A DNA stretch of 64,000 nt from Candidatus Parcubacteria bacterium (GCA_026004495.1 BPJG01000001.1:350858-414857), one strand, 5' to 3'. Numbered from the stretch's first letter, positions 5,775 to 47,954 are shown. The notes: generated by a model from the letters alone, not told the origin. A program made the numbers and translations.

Positions 5775-6112
5775 GGGGATGAATTGGATTTCGAGGCGGA
5801 AAAGAGATAAAGAAGGCTAACGGTAAAAGCCCGCCTTAGTGGTTATAAAAAGTGCAAACCAACCTCTTGCCTACGCTGTTAGTTAAAGTAGGGCTCTGGA
5901 GAAAGTTTGTTGGATTCTTTCTTCAGGGTGATAAATAATCCAACTTGAATTAAAGAAGTTGACTAGCTTCTTTAATTGACACCAATAATAGTCTATCTCC
6001 AATTCATTTTGTAGGTTTTAAAGAATTGGGGTGAAAATTAAAAAAACCTACTATGTTAGTAGAATTCTTTATCAATTTTCCGTCGACGGGGGTTCGATTC
6101 CCCCCATCTCCA
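5775..6112 (+). ncRNA. ssrA: tmRNA (ssrA), standard one-piece form
   Basis: The 5' end GGGGATGAATTGGATTTCGAGGCGG and the 3' end GGGGGTTCGATTCCCCCCATCTCCA give a tRNA-Ala-like acceptor/T-arm with a G3:U70 pair. A candidate tag ORF runs from GCA at 5854 to TAA at 5884-5886 and would encode ANQPLAYAVS. It is adjacent to smpB, and no CCA is encoded. Confidence 0.8.
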
Positions 6113-6144
6113 AATTTATTTTGGAGTTTTAATTTTAAATTATT

Positions 6145-8145: not shown

Positions 8146-11100
8146 ATGTACAATCTAATATTTTATTAAATTCTTTAATAGTATTTACTCCCATAATACC
8201 TGTTGGTTTTTTAACTTTAAGGTATAATCTTTGAAACTTCTTTACTGAATTAATTGTTCTAATATTATATTTAGTTATTTCTTTATTTTTTGAACCAGGG
8301 CCAGTTTTAGCGATTAAAGTTTTATTATTTGAATTTAATATAATCTGGAGATATTTAATATTATTATTAGTAATTCCTGGTCTTATCTTTTTAAGGGGAA
8401 ATCTAAAATTACTTGGTATTTTTGATTTAATATAATCAAAATCAAAATCTTTATATTTAATGCATATATTATCCTCTTGAGTTTTTTCAAACTCTTCTGA
8501 ACTGGTAGTTGTTTGTAAATTTTGAGCTAAAAGATTTAATAATAAAAGTAAGTTATTTTGTTCTTGGTTTGCAGTTTCTCCATCTTCACCATCTCCACCA
8601 CTACCTCCACCACCTCCACTACTACCACCTCCACCACCTCCACTACTACTACTATCATTGTCAACAATATTAACATTAACATTACTTATTTGAATATTAT
8701 TATAGTTATTGTCTGTTGAAGAAGCAGAATGGCTAATAACTACACTATGATTACCTTCAGCTATACTATCATTAACTGCAGTTACATTAATAGTTTGATT
8801 AATATTCCAATTAGTTGGAGTAAAGACTAAGGTAGAAGTATTAGTTTGAATTTGAGACGAATTATAGGTTAACCTAATTATTACATTACTTGTTGGAGCT
8901 GAAGTTAACCTAAGATTGTAACTACTACCCTCTCCTCCTTCAGTAACAGTGATACTTGTTGGATTAACACTTACTCCACTACTATCATTATCAACAATAT
9001 TAACATTAACATTACTTATTTGAATATTATTATAGTTATTGTCTGTTGAAGAAGCAGAATGGCTAATAACTACAGTATGATTACCTTCAGCTATACTATC
9101 ATTAACTGCAGTTACATTAATAGTTTGATTAATATTCCAATTAGTTGGAGTAAAGACTAAGGTAGAAGTATTAGTTTGAATTTGAGACGAATTATAGGTT
9201 AACCTAATTATTACATTACTTGTTGGAGCTGAAGTTAACCTAAGATTGTAACTACTACCCTCTCCTCCTTCAGTAACAGTGATACTTGTTGGATTAACAC
9301 TTACTCCATTACTATCATTATCAACAATATTAACATTAACATTACTTATTTGAATATTATTATAGTTATTGTCTGTTGAAGAAGCAGAATGGCTAATAAC
9401 TACAGTATGATTACCTTCAGCTATACTATCATTAACTGCAGTTACATTAATAGTTTGATTAATATTCCAATTAGTTGGAGTAAAGACTAAGGTAGAAGTA
9501 TTAGTTTGAATTTGAGACGAATTATAGGTTAACCTAATTATTACATTACTTGTTGGAGCTGAAGTTAACCTAAGATTGTAACTACTACCCTCTCCTCCTT
9601 CAGTAACAGTGATACTTGTTGGATTAACACTTACTCCATTACTATCATTATCAACAATATTAACATTAACATTACTTATTTGAATATTATTATAGTTATT
9701 GTCTGTTGAAGAAGCAGAATGGCTAATAACTACAGTATGATTACCTTCAGCTATACTATCATTAACTGCAGTTACATTAATAGTTTGATTAATATTCCAA
9801 TTAGTTGGAGTAAAGACTAAGGTAGAAGTATTAGTTTGAATTTGAGACGAATTATAGGTTAACCTAATTATTACATTACTTGTTGGAGCTGAAGTTAACC
9901 TAAGATTGTAACTACTACCCTCTCCTCCTTCAGTAACAGTGATACTTGTTGGATTAACACTTACTCCATTACTATCATTATCAACAATATTAACATTAAC
10001 ATTACTTATTTGAATATTATTATAGTTATTGTCTGTTGAAGAAGCAGAATGGCTAATAACTACAGTATGATTACCTTCAGCTATACTATCATTAACTGCA
10101 GTTACATTAATAGTTTGATTAATATTCCAATTAGTTGGAGTAAAGACTAAGGTAGAAGTATTAGTTTGAATTTGAGACGAATTATAGGTTAACCTAATTA
10201 TTACATTACTTGTTGGAGCTGAAGTTAACCTAAGATTGTAACTACTACCCTCTCCTCCTTCAGTAACAGTGATACTTGTTGGATTAACACTTACTCCAGG
10301 ATTATTACTTATTCCTGTAGGATTATAATCAAAAAAGACCAAGTTCTTATTTGAAAAATCATAGTTATTTATCGAACCGTAGGATATGCTTTCAAAATTT
10401 CCTCCTAAATATAATTTTCTTGAGCTAGTACTAAAAGCTATTGAATAAATATTAAAATCTGGGAAAATTGCATCATAAGTAAAATTTATTTCTGAGGGCG
10501 TGTAGGTGGCAATTAAAAATCCTAATTGACCCCTGGTGTAAAGTTCATCAAAAAATCCTGAAACAAAAAGTATATTATTTTGACTATCATTTTTAATTTT
10601 AATTACAGGTAAATTTGGATATTCCATATAATTTAAATTTACTGGTGAAAGATTATTTTTATTTAAAGTGGCTAAATATTTATTAAATTTACCACCAACG
10701 AACAATAGATTATCTTCTGGATCTATGCTAATCGTATTAACTAAATCATTTATATTGGATTGAGCTAATAATATAGGACTAGAGGTTGCTCCTATAGAAG
10801 CCAAATAAGAAACATTTTGATTTAATACTCTATTAAATCTGCCGCCAATATATAAAACTCCAGTTGATTCATCAATAACACAATCATTAACTACATCATT
10901 AACAATACCGCTATTTCCATTTATAAAATTATTATCTAAAGTACCAGAACTAGCATTTATTTTTGCTACATATTTATATTTATTCTCATTATTTATTTTA
11001 GAAAAATAGCCACATAAAAATAGTTTATTATTAATCTTATCTAACGTTAAGGCTGAGATAAAATCTCCTGTTGTTGTTGAAAAGGTATAGTTGAAATCAT

Positions 11101-12640
11101 TTATTATGGTATTATTAGTGGTATTAATTGCTGCAAAAAATATTCTATCTTGGTTATTAATTTTTGTAAATGGTCCAGCTATGTATAAATAATTATTATT
11201 AGGGTTATAAAGAAGAACATCAACTGGGTTATTTGGTTCAATATTAAAATTAGTAATTAAGTTTAAATTTCTATCAAAGGCAGCCAAATATTTTTTATAA
11301 ACTCCATTATAGGAATAAAATCTCCCACCAATAAATAAATTACCATTATTATCTAATTTCAAAACATTAACTCTATCGCTTAGTTTTAAATCAGAAATAG
11401 AGGTTATTAAATTTCCAGAGGTTGCATTGATAGCTCTGAAATAATACCTATCACTTGCACTTGTGGCATTAAATGATCCACTAACATATAAGATTCCATT
11501 ATTTTTGTTTAAAGCTAAAGATAGAACTGAATCAACATCAGAATTGTCTCGATTTAGCGAAGAAGAAAATGTATTTATCATCGAACCATTTATAGCATTA
11601 AGGGCAGCAACATAAACAGAAGGAGTAGCAAACCTTCCGCCTATATATAAATAATCATCATTAGGGTTATTAGGGGTATTAAAGTCATTATATTCTAAAG
11701 CCAAAACAACATAATCTAATGAATTGCCAGCTGGATTAAAGCCAGTTATTATACTACCATTTGTTGAAGAAACAGCAGCTAAATATCTTTTAGGTGAAGT
11801 AAAATAACCTCCTACATATAATATATTAGAATCAGGAGATAATAAAATAGTCCAAATGACATCATTAAATGAATTATTGGAATTAAAACTTTCATTTACT
11901 GTTGAGGTTGAATTAGTTGAAAAATTTATAGCAGCTAAAAATTTTTTATTGGAAATAATATTGGTTAAATTATTTTTTATCCAGATAAATTGTCCTCCAA
12001 GATATAAAGTATTAGTATTAGGATGAACTGCTAAAGAAAATACGTAGTCCTCTAGTTCAAAATTAAAGGTATTAACTAAGCGGGGATTATTTAAATCAGA
12101 AATATCAATAGCTGATAAATACTTTCTTGTTAAATTATTTACTGACTGGAATGCTCCTCCAATAAAAAGAATATTATTTTTTAAAGCTAAAGCGTAAACA
12201 GTATCATCAATATTTAAGTTAAAATTACAATTTACTCTTCCTGATTGATCTATATAGGCTAATTTTCTTACCTCACAATTACCTACTTTGAAAAAATCAC
12301 CACCAATAAACCAACCATTGTTATATGGTATAGCTGTCCAAACAGAACCTTCTATTTTATCAATTAAATCAAAAGTTGTATTCTGAGATGTTCTTAAAAT
12401 AAATCCATTTCCCCTATAAGGACCTAAATAAGTAAAATTACCTCCTATATAAACTTTATCATTAGCAACTTCAATAGTATTTATTGAACCGTTAGGCACC
12501 CAATTTAAATTAAACTTTTGAGAAGTTAAATTAGCCCAAGTTAAATTAAATAAAAATATATTAAATAAAAAGAAAATAAAAATCATTATAAAAAACTTCG
12601 TTAAATTTTTTAATTTATTTAAAAATTTTTTTAATTTCAT
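8138..12640 (-). CDS. Giant cell-wall-anchored surface protein: signal peptide, beta-propeller (delta-60-like) repeats, 5 x 110-aa tandem Ig-like repeats, Gly/Ser linker, C-terminal peptidoglycan-binding domain
   Basis: 1500 aa. The N-terminal signal is MKLKKFLNKLKNLTKFFIMIFIFFLF. About 12 recurrences of LY[IV]GG[xF]F over residues 60-700 (LYLGGQF, LYVGGYF, LYIGGRF, LFIGGRF and others) indicate beta-propeller blades. Five perfect 110-aa repeats follow (GVSVNPTSITVTEGGEGSSYNLRL...VTAVNDSIAEGNHTVVISHSA...), then a poly-Gly/Ser linker. The C-terminal ~90 aa match the PG_binding_1 pattern (IKYLQIILN...TGPGS...TKYNIRTINSVKKFQ...TGIMGVNTIKEF). Confidence 0.8.
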   Translation of the reverse strand: MKLKKFLNKLKNLTKFFIMIFIFFLFNIFLFNLTWANLTSQKFNLNWVPNGSINTIEVANDKVYIGGNFTYLGPYRGNGFILRTSQNTTFDLIDKIEGSVWTAIPYNNGWFIGGDFFKVGNCEVRKLAYIDQSGRVNCNFNLNIDDTVYALALKNNILFIGGAFQSVNNLTRKYLSAIDISDLNNPRLVNTFNFELEDYVFSLAVHPNTNTLYLGGQFIWIKNNLTNIISNKKFLAAINFSTNSTSTVNESFNSNNSFNDVIWTILLSPDSNILYVGGYFTSPKRYLAAVSSTNGSIITGFNPAGNSLDYVVLALEYNDFNTPNNPNDDYLYIGGRFATPSVYVAALNAINGSMINTFSSSLNRDNSDVDSVLSLALNKNNGILYVSGSFNATSASDRYYFRAINATSGNLITSISDLKLSDRVNVLKLDNNGNLFIGGRFYSYNGVYKKYLAAFDRNLNLITNFNIEPNNPVDVLLYNPNNNYLYIAGPFTKINNQDRIFFAAINTTNNTIINDFNYTFSTTTGDFISALTLDKINNKLFLCGYFSKINNENKYKYVAKINASSGTLDNNFINGNSGIVNDVVNDCVIDESTGVLYIGGRFNRVLNQNVSYLASIGATSSPILLAQSNINDLVNTISIDPEDNLLFVGGKFNKYLATLNKNNLSPVNLNYMEYPNLPVIKIKNDSQNNILFVSGFFDELYTRGQLGFLIATYTPSEINFTYDAIFPDFNIYSIAFSTSSRKLYLGGNFESISYGSINNYDFSNKNLVFFDYNPTGISNNPGVSVNPTSITVTEGGEGSSYNLRLTSAPTSNVIIRLTYNSSQIQTNTSTLVFTPTNWNINQTINVTAVNDSIAEGNHTVVISHSASSTDNNYNNIQISNVNVNIVDNDSNGVSVNPTSITVTEGGEGSSYNLRLTSAPTSNVIIRLTYNSSQIQTNTSTLVFTPTNWNINQTINVTAVNDSIAEGNHTVVISHSASSTDNNYNNIQISNVNVNIVDNDSNGVSVNPTSITVTEGGEGSSYNLRLTSAPTSNVIIRLTYNSSQIQTNTSTLVFTPTNWNINQTINVTAVNDSIAEGNHTVVISHSASSTDNNYNNIQISNVNVNIVDNDSNGVSVNPTSITVTEGGEGSSYNLRLTSAPTSNVIIRLTYNSSQIQTNTSTLVFTPTNWNINQTINVTAVNDSIAEGNHTVVISHSASSTDNNYNNIQISNVNVNIVDNDSSGVSVNPTSITVTEGGEGSSYNLRLTSAPTSNVIIRLTYNSSQIQTNTSTLVFTPTNWNINQTINVTAVNDSIAEGNHSVVISHSASSTDNNYNNIQISNVNVNIVDNDSSSSGGGGGGSSGGGGGSGGDGEDGETANQEQNNLLLLLNLLAQNLQTTTSSEEFEKTQEDNICIKYKDFDFDYIKSKIPSNFRFPLKKIRPGITNNNIKYLQIILNSNNKTLIAKTGPGSKNKEITKYNIRTINSVKKFQRLYLKVKKPTGIMGVNTIKEFNKILDCTFE
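8648..10297 (-). repeat. Five head-to-tail tandem repeats of 330 bp inside the giant surface-protein gene
   Basis: The 10-mer tcaacaatat recurs at 8661, 8991, 9321, 9651 and 9981 within long identical blocks, giving an exact period of 330 bp. Copies differ at only a few positions (for example ccact versus ccatt). Confidence 0.9.
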
Positions 12641-14454: not shown

Positions 14455-14570
14455 GCCTTGCGGTACCTACTCTCGCGCCTAAATTGGCACTACCATCGGC
14501 ACTTAGCCGTTTCACTTGCCTGTTCGGAATGGAAAGGAGTGGTTCCAGCTAAGTTATGCAACCACAAGGC
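14455..14570 (-). rRNA. rrf: 5S ribosomal RNA
   Basis: The reverse complement reads GCCTTGTGG...CCGAACAGGCAAGTGAAACGGCTAAGTGCCGATGGTAGTG...GCGAGAGTAGGTACCGCAAGGC. Universal 5S loop motifs (CCGAAC, GTGAAAC, CCGATGGTAGTG, GAGAGTAGG) are present and the helix I termini pair. Length is about 116 nt. Confidence 0.85.
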
Positions 14571-28855: not shown

Positions 28856-30025
28856 ATGATTAATATTAAACAATTCCAAAATTTCATAGATGAAATAAGC
28901 GAAGAAAAAGATTTAAGCGAAGATGATGTTAAGGAGGCTATTTTAACTGCTTTAGCTGCTGCCTATAAAAAAGATTATTGTAATAAAGAAGAGAAAGTAG
29001 AAAGCAAATTAGATCCAACTGGAAGATGGGTTGAATTTTATTTAGTTAAAACTGTTATTGATGATAATCCCCCTCAGTTTAATAATTATAAAAATATTAA
29101 GATTTCTGAAGCTATTAAAATAAATCCCTCGATTAAAGTTGGTGATGAAATTAGAATTCCTTTAGAGATAAAAGAAAATTTTAGTCGAGTAGCAACTCAA
29201 ACTGCCAAACAAGTTATTATTCAAAAACTAAGAGAAATAAATAAAGAAAAAACCTATGAAGAATTTAAAAATAAAGAAGGAAAAATAGTTTCTGGTGCTA
29301 TTCAAAAAGTAGATCCTAATATTATTTATGTTGATTTAGGCAAGACTATTGGTTATATGTTTAAAAATGAGACTATACCTGGAGAGTTTTATCGAATTGG
29401 TAATAGGATGAGGTTTTATGTTTATGCAGTTGAAAAAACATCAAAGGGCGTAGAAATTTATCTTTCACGTTCTCACCCTCTATTTCTTAACTCACTTTTT
29501 ACCTTCGAAATTTCCGAAATATCTGAAGGCCAGATAGAAATTAAAAATGTTGTAAGGTTACCAGGAATAAGATCAAAAATTGCAGTTAAATCAAAAGTTA
29601 ACAATTTAGACCCAGTAGGAACATGTATTGGCCCTAAGGGTGCTAGAGTTTTAAATATCTCTAATGAACTTAATGGAGAAAAAATTGATATTATTCTTTA
29701 TTCAGATGACCCTGTTCAATATGTCATTAATGCTCTTTCTCCCGCTAAAATTATCAGTTCAGAGATATTACCTCAAAGGACTATTAAAGTTTATGTTAGC
29801 GAAGATCAATTACCAATTGTTTTGGGTCGTAATGGTATTAATATTAAATTAGCATCAAAATTAACAGGCTGGAAAATTGATGTTCGCTTAATCGAAGAAC
29901 CAGAAAGAGAAATTGAAGGTGGAGTTGTTGATGCAGAAAGTGATGAAAATATTAAAACTTTTGATGATGATAATAAAATTGAGGATAACAAATTAGAAAA
30001 TTTAAATGAAAGGGGTCAAAATTAA
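28856..30025 (+). CDS. nusA: Transcription termination/antitermination factor NusA
   Basis: Contains the NusA N-domain, an S1 domain and two KH domains (GPKGARVLNISNELNGEKIDII; VLGRNGINIKLASKLTGWKIDV). Confidence 0.85.
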   Translation: MINIKQFQNFIDEISEEKDLSEDDVKEAILTALAAAYKKDYCNKEEKVESKLDPTGRWVEFYLVKTVIDDNPPQFNNYKNIKISEAIKINPSIKVGDEIRIPLEIKENFSRVATQTAKQVIIQKLREINKEKTYEEFKNKEGKIVSGAIQKVDPNIIYVDLGKTIGYMFKNETIPGEFYRIGNRMRFYVYAVEKTSKGVEIYLSRSHPLFLNSLFTFEISEISEGQIEIKNVVRLPGIRSKIAVKSKVNNLDPVGTCIGPKGARVLNISNELNGEKIDIILYSDDPVQYVINALSPAKIISSEILPQRTIKVYVSEDQLPIVLGRNGINIKLASKLTGWKIDVRLIEEPEREIEGGVVDAESDENIKTFDDDNKIEDNKLENLNERGQN

Positions 30026-30040
30026 TTTTAATTTAAAAAT

Positions 30041-30520
30041 ATGGAGTTAGAAGTTTTTATAGAAATTTCAAAAAATAGTTCCGTTAAATACGAATTTGAT
30101 AAAGAAAAAAATATATTGAAAGTAGATAGATTTTTGTATACTGCAATGTTTTTTCCTTTCAATTATGGTTTTATTGTTGATACCCAGGGAGAAGATGGAG
30201 ACCCTGTTGATGCTTTAATTTTATCTGAATTTTCAATTTTACCCGGAAGTTTAATTAAATGTCAACCAATCGGAGGTTTAGAGATGGAAGATGAGTCAGG
30301 TAATGATGAAAAAATAATTGTTGTCCCCTTAGATAAAATTGATCCATTTTGGTCTAAATATAAAAGTATTAATCAATTAGAAGAAAGTTATAAAAATAAA
30401 ATTAGACATTTCTTTGAAAATTATAAAACTCTTGAACCTAATAAATGGGTAAAGATAAATAATTGGTTTGATTATGATAAAGCTGTTGAAATTATTAAAA
30501 AATCTCTTATTAAAAAATGA
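30041..30520 (+). CDS. ppa: Inorganic pyrophosphatase (family I)
   Basis: 159 aa with the family I signature DGDPVDALIL and conserved acidic residues. Confidence 0.85.
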   Translation: MELEVFIEISKNSSVKYEFDKEKNILKVDRFLYTAMFFPFNYGFIVDTQGEDGDPVDALILSEFSILPGSLIKCQPIGGLEMEDESGNDEKIIVVPLDKIDPFWSKYKSINQLEESYKNKIRHFFENYKTLEPNKWVKINNWFDYDKAVEIIKKSLIKK

Positions 30521-33500
30521 TTAATTTTCATAAAATTGAAGAAAAAATATTGAAATTTTGGAAAGCTCATAATATTTTCGAGAAAAGTGTTGAGGCTAAT
30601 AAAATGAATAAACCATTTGTTTTTTTAGATGGGCCTCCATTTGCTAATAATAAACCTCATATAGGACATTTTTTAACTAGAATTTATAAAGATATAATTT
30701 TGAGGTTTAAAACAATGACTGGTTATTATGTTGAAAGAAGGGCAGGTTGGGATACCCATGGTTTACCAATAGAAATTGCTACTGAAAAATCCTTAGGTTT
30801 TTCTAGTAAAAAAGAAATTTTAAGTTATGGTATTGAAAAATTTAATCAAAAATGTAAAGAATTGGTTATGAAATATAAAGATCAGTGGGAGTATTTTGAT
30901 GAAATAAGTGGTTTTTGGATAGATCATCAAAGAGCTTATATTACTTATGATCCTTATTATATGGAAAGTTGTTGGTGGATAATTAAAAAAATATATGATC
31001 AAGGATTTTTAAAAGAAGAATATAAAGTTTTTCCCTATTGTCCCAGATGTGAAACTGTTCTTTCTCAAGCTGAAGTTGGTCAAGTAGATGCTTATAAAAA
31101 AATTAAAGATCCTGATTTATATGTTAAATTTAAATTAAAAAACAGACAAAATGAATATTTTTTGGTTTGGACCACTACTCCATGGACTTTAATTTCTAAT
31201 TTAGCTTTAGCAATTAATCCAGAATTTGATTATAGTTTATACGAAATCGAAGATAAAAAATATTGGGCAATAGAAGGAATTGAAAAAAAACTTGAATTAA
31301 TGTCTAAAAAAAATATAAGACTAATAACGACCACAAAGGGAGAGAACCTTATTGGCTTAGAATATGAACCACTCTTTAAGTTGGTAAAATTAGAAAATTA
31401 CGATAATTGCTATAAGGTTTATCCAGCTGATTTTATTAGTAAAGAAGAAGGAACAGGAATTGTTCATATAGCCCCAGCATTTGGTGAAGAAGATTTTGAA
31501 TTAGGTAAAAAATATAATTTACCCATATTTAATCCTATTGATACTAATGGACGATTTAACTCAGATGAACCTCAGCCAATTATTGATGATATCAATAATC
31601 TTTTCTTTAAAGAAGCTAACTCATTAATTATTAATTATTTGAATAATCTAAATCTAATTTTTTACTATGATTTAGAAGGATATGAACATGATTATCCTCA
31701 TTGTTGGCGTTGTAAGGAGCCATTAATTTATTATAGTACTAAAAATTGGGTGATTAAAGTATCAAAGTTTAATAAAAGATTAATAGAATTAAATAAAAAA
31801 ATTAATTGGGTATCTCCAGAAATAAGTAATCGTTTTTTTGAATGGTTAAAAGAAGGGAAAGATTGGAATTTATCTCGTAATCGTTTCTGGGGAATACCCT
31901 TGCCTATTTGGAGATGTGAAACTTGCGGTTCTATAGAGGTTATTTCAAGTTTAAAAGAATTGGGAAATAAATTCAAATCTAAAAATAATTATTATTTTTT
32001 AAGGCACGCTGAAGCATATAGTAACCTCAAGGGTATATTATCTTCTTATCCTGAATTATTTTTCAATCCCCTAACTTACAAGGGCATTAAGCAAGTAAAC
32101 TCTCTTGTTAATAAAATAAAAAATTTAAATATTGATTTGATAATAACTTCTCCACTTTTAAGAGCTAAACAAACAGCAGAAATAATTGCTCGAAAATTAA
32201 ATTTGCCTGTTTTGATTAATTTTGACTTAAGAGAAATTGATTTTGGAAATTTTAATGGTAAATCAGAAAAAGAATATCAAAATTTAATTAAAGATCAATT
32301 TCAAGAATATTTTGTTAAACCTACAGATGGAGAAAATTTAATTGAAGTTAAAAGAAGAATGATTAAAGTTATTTTAGATTTAGAAGAAAGATATGATAAT
32401 AAGAATTTTTTGATAATTTCCCATCAAGATCCCCTTTGGACCCTATTTGGAGAAATGCAAGGATTATCTATTGAACAAACTATTAATACTAAAGAATTTA
32501 TTCTTAAATTAGGTGATCTTAAAAAGGTAGAATTTTTAATTTTGCCTCGTGATGAAGAGGGAGAAATAAATATTCATCGACCCTATGTTGATAATTTTAT
32601 TTGGAAATGCAAGTGTGGTGGTTTTAAAAAAAGAGTTGAAGATGTAATTGATATTTGGTTTGATTCTGGCAGTGCGACCTTTTCTTCTGTCCATTATCCC
32701 TTTGAAAATAAAAAAGAAATTGACGAAGGGAAAAAATTCCCAGTAGATTTTATTGTTGAAGGCGTTGATCAAACCCGTGGATGGTTTTATACTCTATTAA
32801 CTGTAGGTTACTTAGTAAAAAAAGAAATATCTTATCGTAATGTAGTTTCATTAGGTTTAGTTTTAGATAAGAATGGAAGGAAAATGTCTAAATCTTTAGG
32901 TAATACTATTGATCCATTTGAGGCAATCGAAAACTGGGGTAGTGATCTTTTAAGATTTTATTTTTGTTATGTTAATGAATCGGCTGATAATAAAAAATTT
33001 GACGAGAAGTCATTATCCAGCTTAAGAAATAATTATTTCAATATAATTTTAAATATCTTAAATTTTTATCGAATGTATAATGATCCAAATAAAATAAGAA
33101 TTACAAAAAGCAATTATTTATTAGATAAATGGTTTGATATAAGGTTTAGGTTAGCTTACTATAATATTTTTAATTATTTAGATAATTATAATCTTAATAA
33201 AGCAAGCAGAGAGCTTGTTGATTTAGTTGATGATTTCTCTCGTTGGTGGCTAAGAAGAAGTAGAAATAGGTTTCAAAGGCCAAAGAATAAACTTGAAAAA
33301 AATATTGCTCTCTCTAAATTAGAAGATTATCTTTTAAATTTAGCAATTATTTCTGCGCCCCTTAATCCTTTTTTTAGTGAATATCTTTATCAAGAAATGA
33401 AAAATGAAATTAAAGATAAAAGAAAGGGTAAATTAAGTGTTCATTTAGAAAAATTAAATCTACCTCAAAAAATTTCAACTAAAGAATATGAAATTTTAGA

Positions 33501-34011
33501 GAAAATGAAAGAAATAAGAGAAATTACTTCAATAATTTTGATGATGAGAAAATCAAATAACCTTAAAATAAGACAACCCCTTAATGATGTTTATATAGCC
33601 AAAAAAATACCTGTAGAATTTTTAGATATTATTAAAGAAGAAGTTAATGTTAAAAATATTTATCTTGGAGAACCACATAATAAAGAAAATTATTTGATAA
33701 CAGATAAACCAGTAAATATTTATTTAAACAAATTAATAACACCTCAACTTAAAGAGGAGGGTATAACTAATGATTTTATTAGATATTTGCAGGATTTAAG
33801 ACAAGACTTAGGATTAATACCAGCTAAAAAAGTGAACGTCCATTTGATTATTAATAACAATAATTTAAAAAAAATAATTTTTCGAAATATCAATAAAATC
33901 CAAAGAGAAACTAACACTAAAATATTTTTTAATAAATCCAAAAAATTTAAATTAGAAAGGGATTTTAATTATGATAATTTTGGTAAGGTAATTATTTTTG
34001 TTGATTTTTGA
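30517..34011 (+). CDS. ileS: Isoleucyl-tRNA synthetase (type 2-like) carrying an inserted histidine-phosphatase domain
   Basis: HIGH motif (PPFANNKPHIGH), an IleS-like N-terminal core (WDTHGLPIE), a CP1/editing region, the WRCETCGS zinc-binding segment, WFDSGS, and KMSKS (GRKMSKSLGN). Between the zinc-binding segment and WFDSGS lies a block of about 190 aa with phosphoglycerate-mutase-family motifs. Confidence 0.85.
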   Translation: MINFHKIEEKILKFWKAHNIFEKSVEANKMNKPFVFLDGPPFANNKPHIGHFLTRIYKDIILRFKTMTGYYVERRAGWDTHGLPIEIATEKSLGFSSKKEILSYGIEKFNQKCKELVMKYKDQWEYFDEISGFWIDHQRAYITYDPYYMESCWWIIKKIYDQGFLKEEYKVFPYCPRCETVLSQAEVGQVDAYKKIKDPDLYVKFKLKNRQNEYFLVWTTTPWTLISNLALAINPEFDYSLYEIEDKKYWAIEGIEKKLELMSKKNIRLITTTKGENLIGLEYEPLFKLVKLENYDNCYKVYPADFISKEEGTGIVHIAPAFGEEDFELGKKYNLPIFNPIDTNGRFNSDEPQPIIDDINNLFFKEANSLIINYLNNLNLIFYYDLEGYEHDYPHCWRCKEPLIYYSTKNWVIKVSKFNKRLIELNKKINWVSPEISNRFFEWLKEGKDWNLSRNRFWGIPLPIWRCETCGSIEVISSLKELGNKFKSKNNYYFLRHAEAYSNLKGILSSYPELFFNPLTYKGIKQVNSLVNKIKNLNIDLIITSPLLRAKQTAEIIARKLNLPVLINFDLREIDFGNFNGKSEKEYQNLIKDQFQEYFVKPTDGENLIEVKRRMIKVILDLEERYDNKNFLIISHQDPLWTLFGEMQGLSIEQTINTKEFILKLGDLKKVEFLILPRDEEGEINIHRPYVDNFIWKCKCGGFKKRVEDVIDIWFDSGSATFSSVHYPFENKKEIDEGKKFPVDFIVEGVDQTRGWFYTLLTVGYLVKKEISYRNVVSLGLVLDKNGRKMSKSLGNTIDPFEAIENWGSDLLRFYFCYVNESADNKKFDEKSLSSLRNNYFNIILNILNFYRMYNDPNKIRITKSNYLLDKWFDIRFRLAYYNIFNYLDNYNLNKASRELVDLVDDFSRWWLRRSRNRFQRPKNKLEKNIALSKLEDYLLNLAIISAPLNPFFSEYLYQEMKNEIKDKRKGKLSVHLEKLNLPQKISTKEYEILEKMKEIREITSIILMMRKSNNLKIRQPLNDVYIAKKIPVEFLDIIKEEVNVKNIYLGEPHNKENYLITDKPVNIYLNKLITPQLKEEGITNDFIRYLQDLRQDLGLIPAKKVNVHLIINNNNLKKIIFRNINKIQRETNTKIFFNKSKKFKLERDFNYDNFGKVIIFVDF
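31975..32545 (+). other. Embedded histidine phosphatase (PGAM/His_Phos_1-like) domain within IleS
   Basis: YFLRHAEA corresponds to the RHG catalytic His motif. LTYKGIKQ, IITSPLLRAKQTAEIIA (the SPLxRAxxTA motif) and LIISHQDPL (the second catalytic His) follow in the canonical order and spacing of branch-1 histidine phosphatases. The IleS sequence resumes in frame after it. Confidence 0.7.
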
Positions 34012-34012
34012 T

Positions 34013-35065
34013 TTAATTAATTAAATAAAACTTACCTTCTTTATTTTTAATAATTTTTTTAATTTCCATATGGGTAAGGATAACTAGTAAATCAGAAATA
34101 CTTAATTTTGTTTCTTTATTTATTTCTTCAATTGATTTAGCTCCTAATTTTAGGCATTCATAAATTAATTCTTCTTGAGGTGACAACTTAATATTAATTA
34201 ATTTATTTTTCAAGTCATAATTAAAATTAAATTCAGATAAAATATCATCTATTGAGGTAACTAATTTAGCTCCTTGTTTTATTAAGTTATGGCTTCCTTC
34301 AAAATTTTTATTTGTTATTTCTCCAGGAATAACAAATATTTCTTTACCAAATTTTAAGGAATAATTGGCAGTTATTAATGAACCTGAATTTATAGGTGCC
34401 TCTATAATTAAAACGCCATCGCTTAAGGCTGCAATAATTCTATTTCTTAGTGGAAAATGATATGGTAGAGCTGTTGTAAAAGGAGAAAACTCTGATATTA
34501 TTAGCCCATTATTTTCTAATATTTTTTTTATTAAATTTCCTTTATCAGATTTCAGAGCTATCCCAATTCCCTCACCTAAAACAGCAATTGTTTTGCCCTC
34601 ATTATTAAAAGTAGATTTGTGAGCAAAAGTATCAATTCCATAAGCTAAACCACTAATAATAGTAATTCCCAATTCAGATAATTGACTAGCAAATTTATTA
34701 GTTATTAATGTGCCATAATTTGATGGTTTTCTTGTTCCAACTATAGCTAATGACAGATTAGGGTTTTTAATTAAATCTATATTACCTAATAAATATAATC
34801 CTAAGGGTGGGTTATCAATATTTTTTAAACTATTAGGATATTCAGCATCTTTGAATTTTAAAATTTTTACTTTTAAATTTTCAAGTTCCCTTCTTTCTAA
34901 ATCTAAATTAATCCCCCCTATATTATTTTTATCTTCTAATAATTTAAAATATAAATCTTTAAAACTTTCCAATTTATGATATAATTTAAATATTCTTGGT
35001 TGGTAAGGTTTAAAATTTTTATTAATAAAATTAAAATATAAATCTTCTAAATTCAAATTTTCCAT
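34013..35065 (-). CDS. dprA: DNA processing protein DprA (Smf)
   Basis: DprA Rossmann-like domain (LAIVGTRKPSNYG...GLAYGIDTFAHKS...GKTIAVLGEGI) plus a C-terminal winged-helix-like tail. Confidence 0.8.
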   Translation of the reverse strand: MENLNLEDLYFNFINKNFKPYQPRIFKLYHKLESFKDLYFKLLEDKNNIGGINLDLERRELENLKVKILKFKDAEYPNSLKNIDNPPLGLYLLGNIDLIKNPNLSLAIVGTRKPSNYGTLITNKFASQLSELGITIISGLAYGIDTFAHKSTFNNEGKTIAVLGEGIGIALKSDKGNLIKKILENNGLIISEFSPFTTALPYHFPLRNRIIAALSDGVLIIEAPINSGSLITANYSLKFGKEIFVIPGEITNKNFEGSHNLIKQGAKLVTSIDDILSEFNFNYDLKNKLINIKLSPQEELIYECLKLGAKSIEEINKETKLSISDLLVILTHMEIKKIIKNKEGKFYLIN

Positions 35066-35129: not shown

Positions 35130-37040
35130 ATGAGCTATAGGGCAGAAGATATTCAAGTTTTAGAAGGCATCGAAGCTGTCAGAAGAAGACCTGGAATGTA
35201 TATCGGAAGCACCGGTAAGGATGGATTACATCATTTGATTTATGAAATTGTTGCTAATGCTATTGATGAAAGTTTAGCCGGTTTTGCTAAAAATATAGAG
35301 GTTAAAATATTAAAAAATAATAGGGTTTTAGTTTCAGATGATGGTAGAGGTATACCAGTTGATATTCATCCTAAAACAAAAAAATCAGCATTGGAAACAG
35401 TTCTAACTTATTTACACGCAGGTGGAAAATTTTCTCAAAAAATTTATAAAGTCGCAGGTGGGCTTCATGGTGTTGGCTTATCAGTTGTTAATGCTTTAAG
35501 TAAGTATTTAAAAGTTATTGTTTTTCGAGATGGATATGAATGGTCACAAGAATACGAAAGAGGAGTACCAAGGTTTCCTTTAAAAAAAATTAGAGCTTCC
35601 CAAAAAACAGGAACAATAATAATTTTCGAACCTGATTCTAAAATATTTAATGAAATTGATTTCGATCGCCAGATTATTTTAGATTACTTAAGGCATCAAA
35701 ATTATTTAACTGGTGGTTTAAGAATTAATTTTTATGATGAAAGAGACAATTTTAGTTATGGTTTTTATAATGATGGTGGCCTTATAAGTTTTTTAAATCA
35801 TTTAATTAAATTTAAAAAATTAATTAACGAGCATCATATTTATCATAAAATAGTTGATGATAATAAAGAATTAGAGTTTTGTTTTAATTATGTTGAATTG
35901 CCAGAAACTCAAGAGTTAGCTTTTACTAATAATATTCTTAATCCCGAAGGAGGAACTCATATTGTAGGCTTTAGAAATGCTTTAGTTAGAGTCTTTAATG
36001 ATTTAGCTAAAGAAATTAATATTTTTAAGGGTAATAAAAATTTAATTACTGAAGACATCCGTGGGGGTTTATACTTAATTATTTCTATTAAAATACCCGA
36101 ACCTCAATTTGAAGGACAGACAAAATCAAAATTAGGTAATCCTGAAGTAAAAAATTTTGTTGAAAGTAGAGCTTATTCATTTTTAAAAGAATACTTTAGT
36201 AAAAATCCTCAAGAGTTAAAAAATATATTAAATAGATTATTAATTAACATTGAAGCTCGAGAAGCAGAAAAAACAGCTAAAGAAAGTATTTTTAAAAAAA
36301 GAATTTCAATTTCTTTGACTCTTTCTGGCAAATTAGCTGATTGCTCAAATAGAGATTTTTCAAAAAGAGAATTATTTATAGTTGAAGGTGATAGCGCTGG
36401 TGGTAGCGCTAAGCAAGCTCGTGATCGTACCCTTCAAGCAGTTTTACCCTTAAGAGGAAAAATTTTAAATGTTGAAAAATCAAACCTAGCAAAGATTTTA
36501 AAATCAAAAGAAATTAAAGATTTAATAATTGCCTTAGGAACTGGTGTGGGTAAAGATTTTAATCTTGAAAATCTAAGGTATTCAAAAATAATTATTGCAA
36601 CTGATGCTGATTCAGATGGTAATCATATTAGAACATTGTTGCTAACTTTATTTTATAGATTTTTTAAACCCCTTATTAATGGCGGTTATATTTATATAGC
36701 CCAACCACCTCTTTATAAAATTCAGATTGGCAAAGAAAAATTATATGCTTATAATGATAATCAAAAAGATAAAATTATTAGGGAAAAAATTAATAAAAAT
36801 AATTTAAATAATCGCCAGCGTTTAATTGAAGTTCAAAGATATAAAGGATTGGGAGAGATGAATCCCGAAGAATTATGGGAAACCACTCTTGATCCAAATA
36901 AAAGAATTCTAAAAAAAATTACAATCGAAGATGCAGAAAAGGCTGATCAATTTTTTTCTATTTTAATGGGTAACGAAGTCGAGCCAAGAAAAAAATTTAT
37001 CGAAATATATGCTAAAGAAGCTAACAACCTTGATATCTGA
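35130..37040 (+). CDS. gyrB: DNA gyrase subunit B (short form without the large insertion)
   Basis: GHKL ATPase N-terminus (VLEGIEAVRRRPGMYIGST...EIVANAIDE), Toprim domain (EGDSAGGSAKQ, DADSDGNHI) and C-terminal tail. Length is 636 aa. A ParE assignment cannot be excluded from sequence alone. Confidence 0.7.
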   Translation: MSYRAEDIQVLEGIEAVRRRPGMYIGSTGKDGLHHLIYEIVANAIDESLAGFAKNIEVKILKNNRVLVSDDGRGIPVDIHPKTKKSALETVLTYLHAGGKFSQKIYKVAGGLHGVGLSVVNALSKYLKVIVFRDGYEWSQEYERGVPRFPLKKIRASQKTGTIIIFEPDSKIFNEIDFDRQIILDYLRHQNYLTGGLRINFYDERDNFSYGFYNDGGLISFLNHLIKFKKLINEHHIYHKIVDDNKELEFCFNYVELPETQELAFTNNILNPEGGTHIVGFRNALVRVFNDLAKEINIFKGNKNLITEDIRGGLYLIISIKIPEPQFEGQTKSKLGNPEVKNFVESRAYSFLKEYFSKNPQELKNILNRLLINIEAREAEKTAKESIFKKRISISLTLSGKLADCSNRDFSKRELFIVEGDSAGGSAKQARDRTLQAVLPLRGKILNVEKSNLAKILKSKEIKDLIIALGTGVGKDFNLENLRYSKIIIATDADSDGNHIRTLLLTLFYRFFKPLINGGYIYIAQPPLYKIQIGKEKLYAYNDNQKDKIIREKINKNNLNNRQRLIEVQRYKGLGEMNPEELWETTLDPNKRILKKITIEDAEKADQFFSILMGNEVEPRKKFIEIYAKEANNLDI

Positions 37041-46112: not shown

Positions 46113-46261
46113 TAATATTTTCTATTAAATCAAGCAATTAAAATAAAAAATTTTCTAATTAAACATTTAATATTCATTAAAGGTTGTTCATTAAAAGGTT
46201 TTTTATTATCCGGGTTAAGTTCAGCTATTTAAAGAATTATTTTTTCTTATTTTAAATAGAA

Positions 46262-47775
<1,514 letters not shown>

Positions 47776-47954
47776 AGAACTTAACCCGGATAATAAAAAA
47801 TCTTTAATTTAAAATTCTCAATTTATAGAGTACAATAAAATCAATTATCACCTATTTAGATTAAAATTTTTAAGAACAAAAAATAATTCTAGTTATAAAA
47901 ATTATAAGAATATTTTTAAAAAATTCAAGTTAGATTAATTTTTAAATTTAATTT

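What the first reader, a model, noticed from the sequence alone, without database searches (positions are those of the whole stretch)
30517..34011. Isoleucyl-tRNA synthetase with an in-frame histidine-phosphatase (phosphoglycerate-mutase-like) domain inserted in its catalytic core
The IleS sequence runs normally through HIGH, the CP1 editing region and the zinc-binding WRCETCGS segment. It is then interrupted by about 190 aa (DNA 31975-32545) carrying all ordered hallmarks of branch-1 histidine phosphatases. These are YFLRHAEA (the RHG-type catalytic His/Arg), LTYKGIKQ, IITSPLLRAKQTAEIIA and LIISHQDPL (the second catalytic His). IleS then resumes in frame with HRPYVD...IDIWFDSGS and KMSKS. In canonical IleS this junction is a loop of 30-50 aa. 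Both catalytic His and the phosphate-binding Arg residues are retained, so the module could be an active phosphatase or phosphomutase built into an essential aaRS. One speculative role is hydrolysis of a nucleotide or aminoacyl-adenylate-related metabolite. I am not aware of such a fusion being described.
Basis: partly seen in the sequence, partly recalled or inferred. Interest (0 to 1): 0.85.

Follow-up and report, generated by a model that had tools for sequence, protein, structure and literature searches.

The report
Isoleucyl-tRNA synthetase carrying an inserted phosphatase
The essential enzyme that loads isoleucine onto tRNA here carries a complete, apparently active histidine-phosphatase enzyme spliced into its catalytic core, an arrangement shared by many Patescibacteria species that I could not find described in the literature.

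Summary
ORF 30517-34011 (+, 1164 aa) is a type-2 IleRS. Its 11-residue zinc-knuckle linker is replaced by about 201 residues (aa 484-684) that form a branch-1 histidine phosphatase (Pfam E = 2.6e-33; model pLDDT 93; closest fold PhoE/CobC). It is not a misassembly. 64 of the 80 best loci from GTDB species genomes, almost all Patescibacteria, have the same in-frame junctions, and an exhaustive HMMER scan found about 140 fused cluster representatives. The catalytic set R496/H497/R549/E573/H636 is intact in 55 of 61 full-length proteins carrying the insert. The insert diverges at the same rate as other IleRS domains. The insert matches, end to end, a stand-alone ~190-aa phosphatase. In all 15 stand-alone loci that gene lies between argS and ileS, so a neighbouring gene most likely relocated into ileS. 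Variants have the domain at a second IleRS site, in two copies, or beside GNAT or kinase-like modules. The substrate is unknown. Ten full-text literature probes found no description. Verdict: a real, widespread, apparently unstudied bifunctional aaRS; a new variant of a known kind.

The parts
30517..34011 (+). ileS ORF, 1164 aa: type-2 isoleucyl-tRNA synthetase with an internal phosphatase domain
   Evidence: ORF. TIGR00392 817 bits against a cut-off of 621. Foldseek best hits are IleRS2 8C9D/8C8V, and 1ILE with TM 0.92 normalised by target.
30517..31965 (+). IleRS N-terminal segment (aa 1-483): first half of the Rossmann fold, the CP1 editing domain, and the start of the second half
   Evidence: Aligns to 1ILE residues 9-477. 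The editing domain matches 1WK8 at 9e-35.
30658..30669 (+). HIGH signature motif (aa 48-51)
31915..31926 (+). First half of the zinc knuckle, C467-x-x-C470 (WRCETCG)
   Evidence: Aligns with the 'vcqacg' segment of 1ILE in the printed alignment. Cys is retained in 47 and 42 of 62 family members.
31966..32568 (+). Inserted module (aa 484-684): a short N-linker, a complete histidine-phosphatase domain, and a C-linker of about 12 aa
   Evidence: No counterpart in 1ILE. Stand-alone proteins P0002 and P0004 align end to end with it. pLDDT 88-98 in the full-length model and 93 in the insert-only model.
31993..32481 (+). Pfam His_Phos_1 core (aa 493-655)
   Evidence: PF00300 E = 2.6e-33. Foldseek: PhoE 1H2E, TM 0.76, rmsd 2.5 A.
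32002..32007 (+). R496-H497 of the 'RHG' motif (here RHA); H497 is the predicted phospho-accepting nucleophile
   Evidence: Both at least 90% conserved in the 62-sequence alignment A1. 100% conserved in fused and 98% in stand-alone forms.
32161..32163 (+). R549, the second phosphate-binding Arg (SPLLRA motif)
   Evidence: Conserved in 98% of fused and 100% of stand-alone forms.
32233..32235 (+). E573, the predicted general acid/base
   Evidence: E in 93% of fused forms; D in four members.
32422..32424 (+). H636, the second active-site His (SHQD motif)
   Evidence: 100% conserved in fused and stand-alone forms.
32569..34008 (+). IleRS C-terminal segment (aa 685-1164): the rest of the Rossmann fold, the anticodon-binding domain and the type-2 C-terminal domain
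   Evidence: Aligns to 1ILE residues 489-785. Anticodon_1 and DUF5915 Pfam hits.
32608..32616 (+). Second half of the zinc knuckle, C698-x-C700 (WKCKCGG)
   Evidence: Aligns with the 'acacgg' segment of 1ILE in the printed alignment. Cys is retained in 45 and 43 of 62 members.
32881..32895 (+). KMSKS signature motif (aa 789-793)
   Evidence: K789 in 58 of 62 members and K792 in 61 of 62
30041..30520 (+). Inorganic pyrophosphatase gene directly upstream, overlapping the ileS start by 4 nt (context, probably co-translated)
   Evidence: PF00719 E = 9e-53. The same ppa-ileS arrangement occurs in the four closest relatives, L010, L011, L012 and L015.

Best explanation
This is the organism's housekeeping type-2 isoleucyl-tRNA synthetase, and a whole, catalytically competent branch-1 histidine phosphatase is spliced into it. 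The phosphatase replaces the short linker inside a surface zinc knuckle (CxxC...CxC) in the second half of the Rossmann fold. This leaves HIGH, KMSKS, the CP1 editing domain and the anticodon-binding domains intact. What is shown: the insertion is real and in frame; it recurs in many Patescibacteria species; it folds as an independent PhoE/CobC-like alpha/beta domain; and it keeps the full R-H-R-E-H active-site set under the same constraint as the rest of the enzyme. What is inferred: (1) The protein is bifunctional. It charges tRNA-Ile normally and also hydrolyses a phosphomonoester through a phospho-His497 intermediate, with R496, R549 and H636 holding the phosphate and E573 acting as acid/base. 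(2) The module came from the stand-alone ~190-aa phosphatase gene that sits between argS and ileS in related lineages, for example through tandem duplication followed by deletions that happened to end in a tolerant surface loop. (3) The linkage is selected rather than accidental, so the phosphatase serves the tRNA-charging context. My best guess for the substrate class is a small nucleotide-like or ribose-phosphate monoester, such as AMP or another nucleoside monophosphate released near the synthetase. This guess rests on the nearest characterised relatives (alpha-ribazole-5'-phosphate phosphatase CobC and the broad-specificity PhoE) and on the coupling to pyrophosphatase in this clade. That last step is a low-confidence guess of about 0.2-0.25.
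For: Architecture: Pfam and NCBIfam hits; boundaries against 1ILE. Recurrence: about 140 of the best 150 cluster representatives (50% identity clusters) in an exhaustive HMMER scan align across the IleS flanks plus the insert. 64 of the 80 best GTDB loci are fused with the same junctions. Synthetase integrity: KMSKS and the zinc cysteines are conserved; full-length model pLDDT 92.6, pTM 0.87, TM 0.92 to 1ILE. Housekeeping orthology: argS lies upstream in 33 of 46 fused loci and recO downstream in 23 of 36, the same neighbourhood as the unfused ileS. Phosphatase competence: the catalytic string reads RHREH in 55 of the 61 proteins with the site-1 insert, and RHRDH in 4 more. The same core is conserved in stand-alone forms. 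Insert identity among close relatives is 57-69%, against 60-73% for CP1 and 59-66% for the anticodon-binding domain. Fold: PhoE 1H2E TM 0.76, followed by CobC and PSP1. Origin: stand-alone P0002 and P0004 align from Met1 to the last residue with the insert. All 15 stand-alone GTDB loci have ileS 17-1397 nt downstream on the same strand and argS upstream; the same holds in L002, L005 and L007. Selection for linkage: the same domain family occurs at a second IleRS site in P0189 and at both sites in P0115 and P0201. Stand-alone forms are strongly basic (median net charge +13) while fused ones are neutral (-2), p = 7e-7. This fits a free protein that must dock electrostatically and a tethered one that need not.
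Against: No substrate was identified. The domain scores below every NCBIfam equivalog cut-off (dPGM_arch 105 against 225, CobC 77.5 against 162.9, PspA 71 against 350). Conserved gene order among housekeeping genes can be historical, so adjacency plus fusion does not prove functional coupling. The second-site copies could come from intragenic duplication rather than independent capture. The neighbour-joining tree does not resolve the direction of change or the number of events. The charge contrast is not corrected for phylogeny. Model coordinates are not exposed, so I could not measure where the phosphatase active site points relative to the tRNA or the synthetic site. Whether a second, plain ileS exists elsewhere in this genome cannot be seen from 64 kb; only one IleS hit occurs in the window.
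Confidence: 0.6

Rival explanations
1. Neutral or co-expression fusion. The phosphatase is an ordinary metabolic enzyme (for example a phosphoserine or sugar-phosphate phosphatase, or a short dPGM-type mutase) that happened to neighbour ileS and was captured in a tolerant surface loop. It works independently of IleRS, and the fusion only guarantees co-expression in a streamlined genome.
For: It neighbours ileS in the stand-alone state. The same active-site core is found in free and fused forms. One source labels a fused fragment COG0406/K15634. The best NCBIfam hit is dPGM_arch. Other unrelated enzyme modules (GNAT, AAA_18, alpha/beta-hydrolase) also sit in class-I aaRS of these lineages, which suggests these enzymes are generally permissive landing sites.
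Against: The insert is retained across lineages that share only about 35% identity. The domain is present at two different IleRS sites and in multiple copies. The basic charge of the free form is lost on fusion. All mutase and phosphatase equivalog cut-offs are missed. The nearest folds are the short phosphatases, not the ~250-aa mutases.
Confidence: 0.3
2. Pseudo-enzyme or structural module. The domain no longer catalyses anything and serves as a tRNA-binding, dimerisation or stabilising appendage, like other connective-peptide insertions in class I aaRS.
For: The full-length pTM of 0.87 suggests it is rigidly packed on the body. This site is a natural insertion point within a zinc knuckle. 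A few members carry substitutions: RHWEH in P0139 and RHRNH in P0239.
Against: 55 of 61 proteins keep all five catalytic residues and 4 more have the conservative E-to-D change. Additional active-site-region residues (G498, T520, G523, S545, T553, A554, E606, R614) are conserved equally in the free and fused forms. The fused domain is near neutral rather than basic, which argues against a new RNA-binding role.
Confidence: 0.07
3. The domain acts directly on tRNA or on IleRS-directed toxic molecules. Examples are 3'/2'-phosphate removal from damaged tRNA ends, or inactivation of a phosphorylated IleRS inhibitor, making IleRS a combined charging and repair/defence machine.
For: The free form is strongly basic, pI about 9.8. 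Co-resident GNAT and P-loop kinase-like modules occur in some family members. 23 of 62 family members carry the GxHH variant of the HIGH motif, which confers mupirocin hyper-resistance in IleRS2 (10.1101/2023.01.31.526100). This hints at inhibitor pressure on this enzyme.
Against: To my knowledge no branch-1 histidine phosphatase acts on RNA ends or on aminoacyl-adenylate mimics. The AAA_18 hit is just below the Pfam cut-off (28.9 against 29.4). Nothing here tests the substrate.
Confidence: 0.12
4. Assembly chimera or sequencing artefact that joined a phosphatase gene into ileS.
For: None beyond the prior possibility for metagenome-derived sequence. The window's exact protein is not in the protein collection.
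Against: The same in-frame junctions occur in 64 independently assembled GTDB species genomes and in about 140 cluster representatives. There is no compositional break. Both reading frames across the junctions are continuous.
Confidence: 0.01

Closest known systems
Type-2 isoleucyl-tRNA synthetase (IleRS2; T. thermophilus 1ILE, Priestia megaterium 8C8V/8C9D, yeast 8WND)
   Same: Full domain set: HIGH, KMSKS, the CP1 editing domain, the two zinc knuckles, the anticodon-binding domain and the type-2 C-terminal domain. TM 0.83-0.92 normalised by target. TIGR00392 scores above its cut-off.
   Different: None of the solved IleRS structures has anything at the insertion point beyond a linker of about 11 residues. 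Here that linker is a 201-residue enzyme domain.
Short branch-1 histidine phosphatases: PhoE (1H2E), alpha-ribazole phosphatase CobC (6NRU, 6E4B), phosphoserine phosphatase PSP1 (4IJ5), riboflavin-pathway HFP (9MMH)
   Same: Same fold (TM 0.68-0.76), a similar size of about 190-210 aa, and the same R-H-R-E-H catalytic set.
   Different: Only 23-27% identity. It scores below all equivalog cut-offs, so the substrate cannot be transferred. Those enzymes are free-standing, whereas this one is embedded in another enzyme.
Stand-alone Patescibacteria 'histidine phosphatase family protein' (e.g. P0013, P0004, P0002) encoded between argS and ileS
   Same: 40-48% identical to the insert and collinear over its whole length. 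The conserved core is the same. It is genomically linked to ileS.
   Different: It is a separate gene product and strongly basic (median net charge +13 to +17), against a near-neutral charge for the fused domain.
NCBIfam NF040702 'ileS_w_GNAT' (isoleucine--tRNA ligase, N-acetyltransferase domain-containing)
   Same: A curated precedent for an IleRS that carries an extra enzyme domain. One family member here (P0239) has GNAT plus the phosphatase at the same site.
   Different: The window protein has no GNAT domain and scores 280 bits against a cut-off of 1999. No equivalent curated model for the phosphatase-bearing form appeared among the 25 NCBIfam hits shown out of 29.
Bifunctional RNase H / acid phosphatase (NCBIfam NF005567, PRK07238; Rv2228c-type is my own attribution)
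   Same: A branch-1 histidine phosphatase covalently joined to a nucleic-acid enzyme. The insert hits this model at 77-82 bits.
   Different: That is an end-to-end fusion, not a domain nested inside a catalytic fold. The score is below the cut-off of 326, and the partner enzyme is different.

Membership tests
Isoleucyl-tRNA synthetase (class Ia) | Scores above the curated equivalog cut-off (TIGR00392 ileS) | tested here: met
   817.2 bits against a cut-off of 621.4, in two stretches interrupted by the insert.
Isoleucyl-tRNA synthetase (class Ia) | Class I signature motifs HIGH and KMSKS | tested here: met
   HIGH at aa 48-51 and KMSKS at aa 789-793. The KMSKS lysines are present in 58 and 61 of 62 family members.
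Isoleucyl-tRNA synthetase (class Ia) | CP1 editing domain | tested here: met
   aa 192-395 align to the isolated IleRS editing-domain structure 1WK8 at E = 9e-35. The WTTTPWT and GTGIVH motifs are present and nearly invariant in the family.
Isoleucyl-tRNA synthetase (class Ia) | Aminoacylation of tRNA-Ile | not testable with these tools
   Needs enzymology.
IleRS type 2 (IleRS2) | Type-2 C-terminal domain instead of the type-1 zinc-binding domain; closest to IleRS2 structures | tested here: met
   PF19302 DUF5915 scores 33.2 bits against a cut-off of 27. PDB hits to type-2 enzymes have E = 1e-207 to 1e-152, against 1e-96 or weaker for type 1. Foldseek ranks IleRS2 first.
Histidine phosphatase superfamily, branch 1 | Pfam PF00300 above the gathering score | tested here: met
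   115.8 bits in the whole protein and 119.9 bits for the insert alone, against a cut-off of 21.7.
Histidine phosphatase superfamily, branch 1 | Catalytic core: the RHG-motif Arg and His nucleophile, a second Arg, a second His and an acidic proton donor | tested here: met
   R496, H497, R549, H636 and E573 are present. The string reads RHREH in 55 of 61 fused proteins. The window has RHA rather than RHG; 86% of the family has G at that position.
Histidine phosphatase superfamily, branch 1 | The alpha/beta fold of the superfamily | tested here: met
   Insert-only AlphaFold model pLDDT 93.0. Foldseek against PhoE 1H2E: TM 0.76, rmsd 2.5 A, probability 1.00.
Histidine phosphatase superfamily, branch 1 | Phosphoryl-transfer activity through a phospho-histidine intermediate | not testable with these tools
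   Needs an assay with an H497A control.
Cofactor-dependent phosphoglycerate mutase (dPGM) | Scores above the curated dPGM cut-offs; a chain of about 250 aa with the mutase-specific extensions | tested here: not met
   dPGM_arch 105-110 bits against 225; pgm_1 19 against 81.7; GpmB 46-51 against 261. The domain is about 190 aa, and the ~250-aa mutases rank behind the short phosphatases in Foldseek.
Alpha-ribazole phosphatase CobC | Scores above the TIGR03162 / PRK15004 cut-offs | tested here: not met
   77.5-82.2 bits against 162.9, and 69-74 bits against 250. It is nonetheless the best PDB sequence hit (6NRU, E = 3.5e-15).
NF040702 IleRS with GNAT domain | GNAT domain present; score above 1999 bits | tested here: not met
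   280 bits. No Acetyltransf_1 hit in the window protein.
Intein or mobile-element insertion | Splicing or endonuclease motifs, terminal repeats or target-site duplication, and a compositional break | tested here: not met
   Only His_Phos_1 is found in the insert. Repeats are short, imperfect and AT-rich, and none lies at the junctions. GC content is continuous.

The most novel reading that the evidence does not exclude
The embedded phosphatase works on the aminoacylation system itself. It might heal phosphorylated tRNA 3' ends, clear a nucleotide product, or destroy a phosphorylated IleRS-directed inhibitor. More broadly, class-I aaRS of Patescibacteria would then serve as scaffolds that repeatedly recruit small-molecule-modifying enzymes (phosphatase at two sites and in up to four copies, GNAT, a P-loop kinase-like module, and an alpha/beta-hydrolase in a LeuRS-like enzyme). 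That would be a previously unrecognised layer of tRNA-charging quality control or defence in ultra-small symbiotic bacteria.
Probability: 0.15. Interest if true: 0.85.

Novelty: new variant of a known kind. Interest (0 to 1): 0.62.

Why it matters
Aminoacyl-tRNA synthetases are among the most conserved enzymes known. Their accessory domains usually bind tRNA or edit mischarged products. A complete, seemingly active metabolic-type phosphatase nested inside the Rossmann fold of an essential IleRS, and kept across a large bacterial radiation, would be a new kind of bifunctional aaRS. It would also be a clean natural example of domain insertion by capture of a neighbouring gene. The conserved argS-phosphatase-ileS neighbourhood together with the fusion gives a testable functional link for an uncharacterised Patescibacteria phosphatase family. 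It also matters practically: IleS is a phylogenetic marker, and at least one source gives fused fragments a phosphoglycerate-mutase-type label (COG0406/K15634), which could distort metabolic reconstructions of these organisms.

Tried and rejected
1. The word-indexed protein search gave a misleading picture of extreme rarity. With the junction query it found only one fused fragment, P0001. Repeated with an insert profile it found only a few more fragments. The exhaustive HMMER scan showed this to be a sensitivity artefact.
2. The first genome scan, with the 18-sequence alignment A2, failed because no block was conserved enough. It succeeded with the tighter alignment A3.
It was replaced by a local column analysis and a scan of seven unusual members.
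4. My first indexing of the zinc-knuckle cysteines was wrong and was corrected.
5. The neighbour-joining tree of the phosphatase domain did not resolve the number or direction of fusion events, so I make no claim about them.
6. Misassembly, an intein or mobile element, a dPGM, CobC and the GNAT-bearing IleRS were each considered and rejected on the tests listed under membership.
7. Ten literature probes, made of nine full-text searches and term searches within two IleRS-evolution papers, found no description of the fusion. The library lacks most subscription-journal papers, and InterPro or UniProt architecture pages cannot be searched here, so prior mention elsewhere is not excluded.
8. A lookup of the P0189 record for annotation failed because it is not in the annotated collections.
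9. Model coordinates are not exposed, so the orientation of the phosphatase active site relative to the tRNA path could not be measured.

Full report
**Observation.** The window has a single uninterrupted ORF at 30517-34011 on the + strand, 1164 aa. It scores 817 bits on the ileS equivalog model TIGR00392 (cut-off 621), but in two stretches. Pfam tRNA-synt_1 is likewise split. Between the two halves, Pfam His_Phos_1 matches aa 493-655 with E = 2.6e-33, and E = 1.4e-34 when the insert is scanned alone. GC content runs at 0.23-0.28 straight through both junctions. The region has only short, imperfect AT-rich repeats, none of them at the junctions. The opposite strand shows only short TTG-start ORFs of 78-81 aa.

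**Exact anatomy.** In the phmmer alignment to T. thermophilus IleRS (1ILE), query residues 3-483 pair with residues 9-477 and query residues 685-979 pair with residues 489-785. An 11-residue linker in the solved enzyme is therefore replaced by about 201 residues (aa 484-684; DNA 31966-32568). The insertion lies between 'PIWRCETCG' (C467, C470) and 'WKCKCGG' (C698, C700). These align with 'piwvcqacg' and 'acacgg' of 1ILE. From my own recollection of that structure, these four cysteines form a zinc knuckle in the second half of the Rossmann fold. The body is a type-2 IleRS: PDB sequence hits to type-2 enzymes have E = 1e-207 to 1e-152, against 1e-96 or weaker for type 1; the DUF5915 C-terminal domain is present; and a full-length AlphaFold model (pLDDT 92.6, pTM 0.87) matches IleRS2 8C9D/8C8V, yeast 8WND and 1ILE (TM 0.92 normalised by target). 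Immediate neighbours are nusA (28856-30025), an inorganic pyrophosphatase gene (30041-30520) whose end overlaps the ileS start by 4 nt, dprA on the minus strand (34013-35065) and gyrB (35130-37040). The window also carries a complete 16S rRNA, a 5S rRNA, tmRNA and five tRNAs, so it is ordinary chromosomal sequence.

**The insert is a bona fide branch-1 histidine phosphatase.** Modelled alone with 18 homologous inserts it folds with pLDDT 93.0. Its best structural matches are the short phosphatase members of the superfamily, ahead of the ~250-aa mutases: PhoE 1H2E (TM 0.76, rmsd 2.5 A), alpha-ribazole phosphatase CobC (6E4B, 6NRU), a riboflavin-pathway histidine phosphatase (9MMH) and phosphoserine phosphatase PSP1 (4IJ5/4IJ6). 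Sequence search of the PDB gives the same set, led by CobC 6NRU at E = 3.5e-15. All curated equivalog cut-offs are missed (dPGM_arch 105 against 225, CobC 77.5 against 162.9, PspA 71 against 350, GpmB 46 against 261). The fold and chemistry can therefore be assigned, but the substrate cannot.

**It is not unique and not an artefact.** A word-indexed search of 5.8 billion clusters found just one other fused protein, the fragment P0001 at 63% identity. This proved to be a sensitivity problem. An exhaustive HMMER scan of 1.84 billion cluster representatives, using a 280-aa query spanning both junctions, returned 173 proteins at E <= 1e-30. Among the best 150, roughly 140 are long proteins or fragments that align across an IleS flank plus the insert. 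Many align as one stretch covering residues 2-280 inside proteins of 1100-1400 aa, and only five are ~190-aa stand-alone phosphatases. A pattern scan of one genome per GTDB species found at least 525 relatives. The best 80 loci are almost all Patescibacteria: Paceibacterota/Parcubacteria including GW2011 genomes, Nomura-, Yonath-, Taylor-, Nealson-, Colwell-, Uhr- and Staskawiczbacteria, Minisyncoccia, and others. tblastn with the separate IleS-N, insert and IleS-C segments classified 64 loci as fused, with IleS-N ending 4-82 nt before the insert match and IleS-C starting 13-94 nt after it. A further 15 were stand-alone and 1 was truncated. Identical in-frame junctions in 64 independent assemblies exclude a chimeric assembly. 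The closest relatives of the window are L010 (JBEQAR010000002.1), L011 (Patescibacteria SKYB72), L012 (Ca. Paceibacter sp.) and L015, at 60-71% identity in the insert. All four have ppa directly upstream, as in the window.

**Both enzymes look functional.** I aligned the window protein with 61 full-length representatives sharing about 35% identity (A1).

- **Insert presence.** 60 sequences have a 188-232-aa insert at this site. P0239 has 398 aa there, and P0189 has none.
- **Phosphatase active site.** R496, H497, R549, E573 and H636 are each at least 90% conserved. The five-residue string reads RHREH in 55 of the 61 insert-bearing proteins, RHRDH in 4, and RHWEH and RHRNH in one each.
- **Same core in free forms.** The same core, plus G498, T520, G523, S545, T553, A554, E606 and R614, is conserved equally in 44 stand-alone homologues.
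- **Rate of divergence.** Among the four closest relatives the insert is 57-69% identical to the window, against 60-73% for the CP1 editing domain and 59-66% for the anticodon-binding domain. It is therefore under comparable constraint.
- **Synthetase side.** The KMSKS lysines are present in 58 and 61 of 62 members, and the four knuckle cysteines in 42-47 of 62.
- **Synteny.** Fused ileS sits in the same neighbourhood as unfused ileS: argS upstream in 33 of 46 loci with enough flank, and recO downstream in 23 of 36 fused against 9 of 10 stand-alone loci. This indicates that it is the housekeeping orthologue.

**Where the module came from.** The closest free proteins are ~189-aa Patescibacteria 'histidine phosphatase family' proteins, 40-48% identical to the insert. 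P0002 and P0004 align with the insert from their first to their last residue. The IleS fusion then adds a linker of about 12 residues before HRPYVD, so the insert corresponds to a whole gene product. Contigs carrying these free genes show argS-phosphatase-ileS on one strand. In L005 and L006, 12 bp separate the phosphatase gene from ileS. In L002 and L007, small RHH/ParE toxin-antitoxin genes and one other gene lie between them. In the GTDB set, all 15 stand-alone loci have ileS 17-1397 nt downstream on the same strand and argS upstream. The simplest reading is that a gene adjacent to ileS was relocated into it. One possible route is tandem duplication followed by deletions ending in a tolerant surface loop; this is my inference and is not shown. 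A neighbour-joining tree places free and fused domains in one family but does not resolve the direction or number of events.

**Variants that bear on function (Pfam).**

| Protein | Architecture |
|---|---|
| P0189 (GCA_021733565.1, 42% GC) | No site-1 insert; a phosphatase of the same family between the catalytic core and the anticodon-binding domain |
| P0115, P0201 | A phosphatase domain at both sites |
| P0179 (3.9-kb contig; treat with caution) | Four His_Phos_1 stretches |
| P0239 | A GNAT domain next to the phosphatase at site 1 |
| P0210 | An AAA_18 kinase-like match, marginally below the Pfam cut-off |

NCBIfam already curates an 'ileS_w_GNAT' model, so domain-bearing IleRS are known in principle. 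In addition, stand-alone phosphatases are strongly basic (median net charge +13, pI 9.8, n = 19), whereas the same domain inside IleS is near neutral (median -2, pI 6.4, n = 50). The Mann-Whitney p-value is 7e-7, and the contrast also holds within low-GC loci (+13 against +2). This would fit a free protein that docks electrostatically on RNA or on the acidic IleRS body and a tethered protein that no longer needs to. The comparison is not phylogenetically corrected and is a lead, not a test.

**Mechanism.**

- **Shown:** a type-2 IleRS with all its catalytic and editing hallmarks, plus an independently folding PhoE/CobC-like domain with a complete, conserved active site.
- **Inferred with good confidence:** the protein is bifunctional. 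The insert hydrolyses a phosphomonoester through a phospho-His497 intermediate, with R496, R549 and H636 binding the phosphate and E573 acting as acid/base, as established for this superfamily.
- **Inferred with moderate confidence:** the physical link to IleRS is selected. The grounds are the deep retention, the two insertion sites, the multiple copies and the conserved neighbourhood.
- **Low confidence (about 0.2-0.25):** the substrate is a nucleotide-like 5'-phosphomonoester such as AMP, by analogy with CobC and PhoE and given the translationally coupled pyrophosphatase in this clade.
- **Main rival (about 0.3):** an ordinary metabolic phosphatase captured from next door, with no functional coupling beyond co-expression.
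- **Other rivals:** a pseudo-enzyme role is unlikely given the active-site conservation. A role acting directly on tRNA ends or on IleRS inhibitors is speculative but not excluded.

**Novelty.** Nine full-text searches found no paper describing an IleRS-histidine phosphatase fusion. Two recent IleRS-focused studies, including a 2026 preprint that annotates IleRS domain architectures across the tree of life (HUP, ED, CP1, CP2, ARD1-3, INS, ZBD), contain no mention of a phosphatase or of Patescibacteria. The sequences themselves have been public for years. NCBI names at least one fused fragment simply 'histidine phosphatase family protein, partial [Patescibacteria group bacterium]' (P0250), and another source labels a fused fragment COG0406/K15634 (P0257). 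The library searched lacks most subscription-journal papers, so an earlier mention cannot be ruled out. Both component families are well known, and aaRS with extra domains are a known theme. I therefore rate this a new variant of a known kind: real, widespread, apparently unstudied, and directly testable.

Noticed in passing
window 30041-30520 / 30517: The inorganic pyrophosphatase gene ends 4 nt inside the ileS start (ATGA overlap), so a PPi-hydrolysing enzyme is probably co-translated with a PPi-producing one. The same ppa-ileS order is found in the four closest relatives (L010, L011, L012, L015), whereas most other fused lineages have argS upstream.
   Followed up: partly
L009 9550-12585: Downstream of a stand-alone phosphatase gene lies a 1011-aa class-I aaRS (LeuRS-type editing domain, only weak similarity to IleS). 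Its precomputed Pfam hits include alpha/beta-hydrolase families (Abhydrolase_1, Hydrolase_4, Ser_hydrolase) listed between two tRNA-synt_1 hits. This would be another enzyme nested in an aaRS.
   Followed up: no
P0189, P0115, P0201, P0179, P0210, P0239: IleRS variants with the phosphatase at a second site (between the catalytic core and the anticodon-binding domain), at both sites, or in four stretches. Others have an extra GNAT domain (P0239) or an AAA_18 kinase-like domain (P0210, 28.9 bits against a cut-off of 29.4).
   Followed up: partly
alignment A1, column of window aa 48-51: 23 of 62 phosphatase-bearing IleRS read GxHH instead of HxGH at the HIGH motif. This is the variant reported to give IleRS2 hyper-resistance to mupirocin (10.1101/2023.01.31.526100). 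The window protein has the canonical HIGH.
   Followed up: partly
stand-alone vs fused phosphatase domains: Free homologues are strongly basic (median net charge +13 to +17, pI about 9.8), while the inserted domains are near neutral (median -2 to +1). The difference persists within low-GC loci. No phylogenetic correction was applied.
   Followed up: partly
L002 8652-9187; L007 8797-9267: Small RHH/ParE-type toxin-antitoxin pairs have inserted between the stand-alone phosphatase gene and ileS in some lineages.
   Followed up: no
L001 about 1216-1230: The only fused hit of the first search (P0001) ends prematurely because of a frameshift in an A-rich run. IleS continues in another frame, so this is probably an assembly or sequencing error on a 1.7-kb contig.
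   Followed up: yes
window 46255-47777 (-), 14455-14569 (-), 5775-6113 (+): There is a complete 16S rRNA about 32 kb from the 5S rRNA, and no 23S was detected anywhere in the window (an unlinked rRNA arrangement). A tmRNA gene is also present.
   Followed up: no
window 8138-12640 (-): A 1500-aa ORF, the largest in the window. It was not examined.
   Followed up: no
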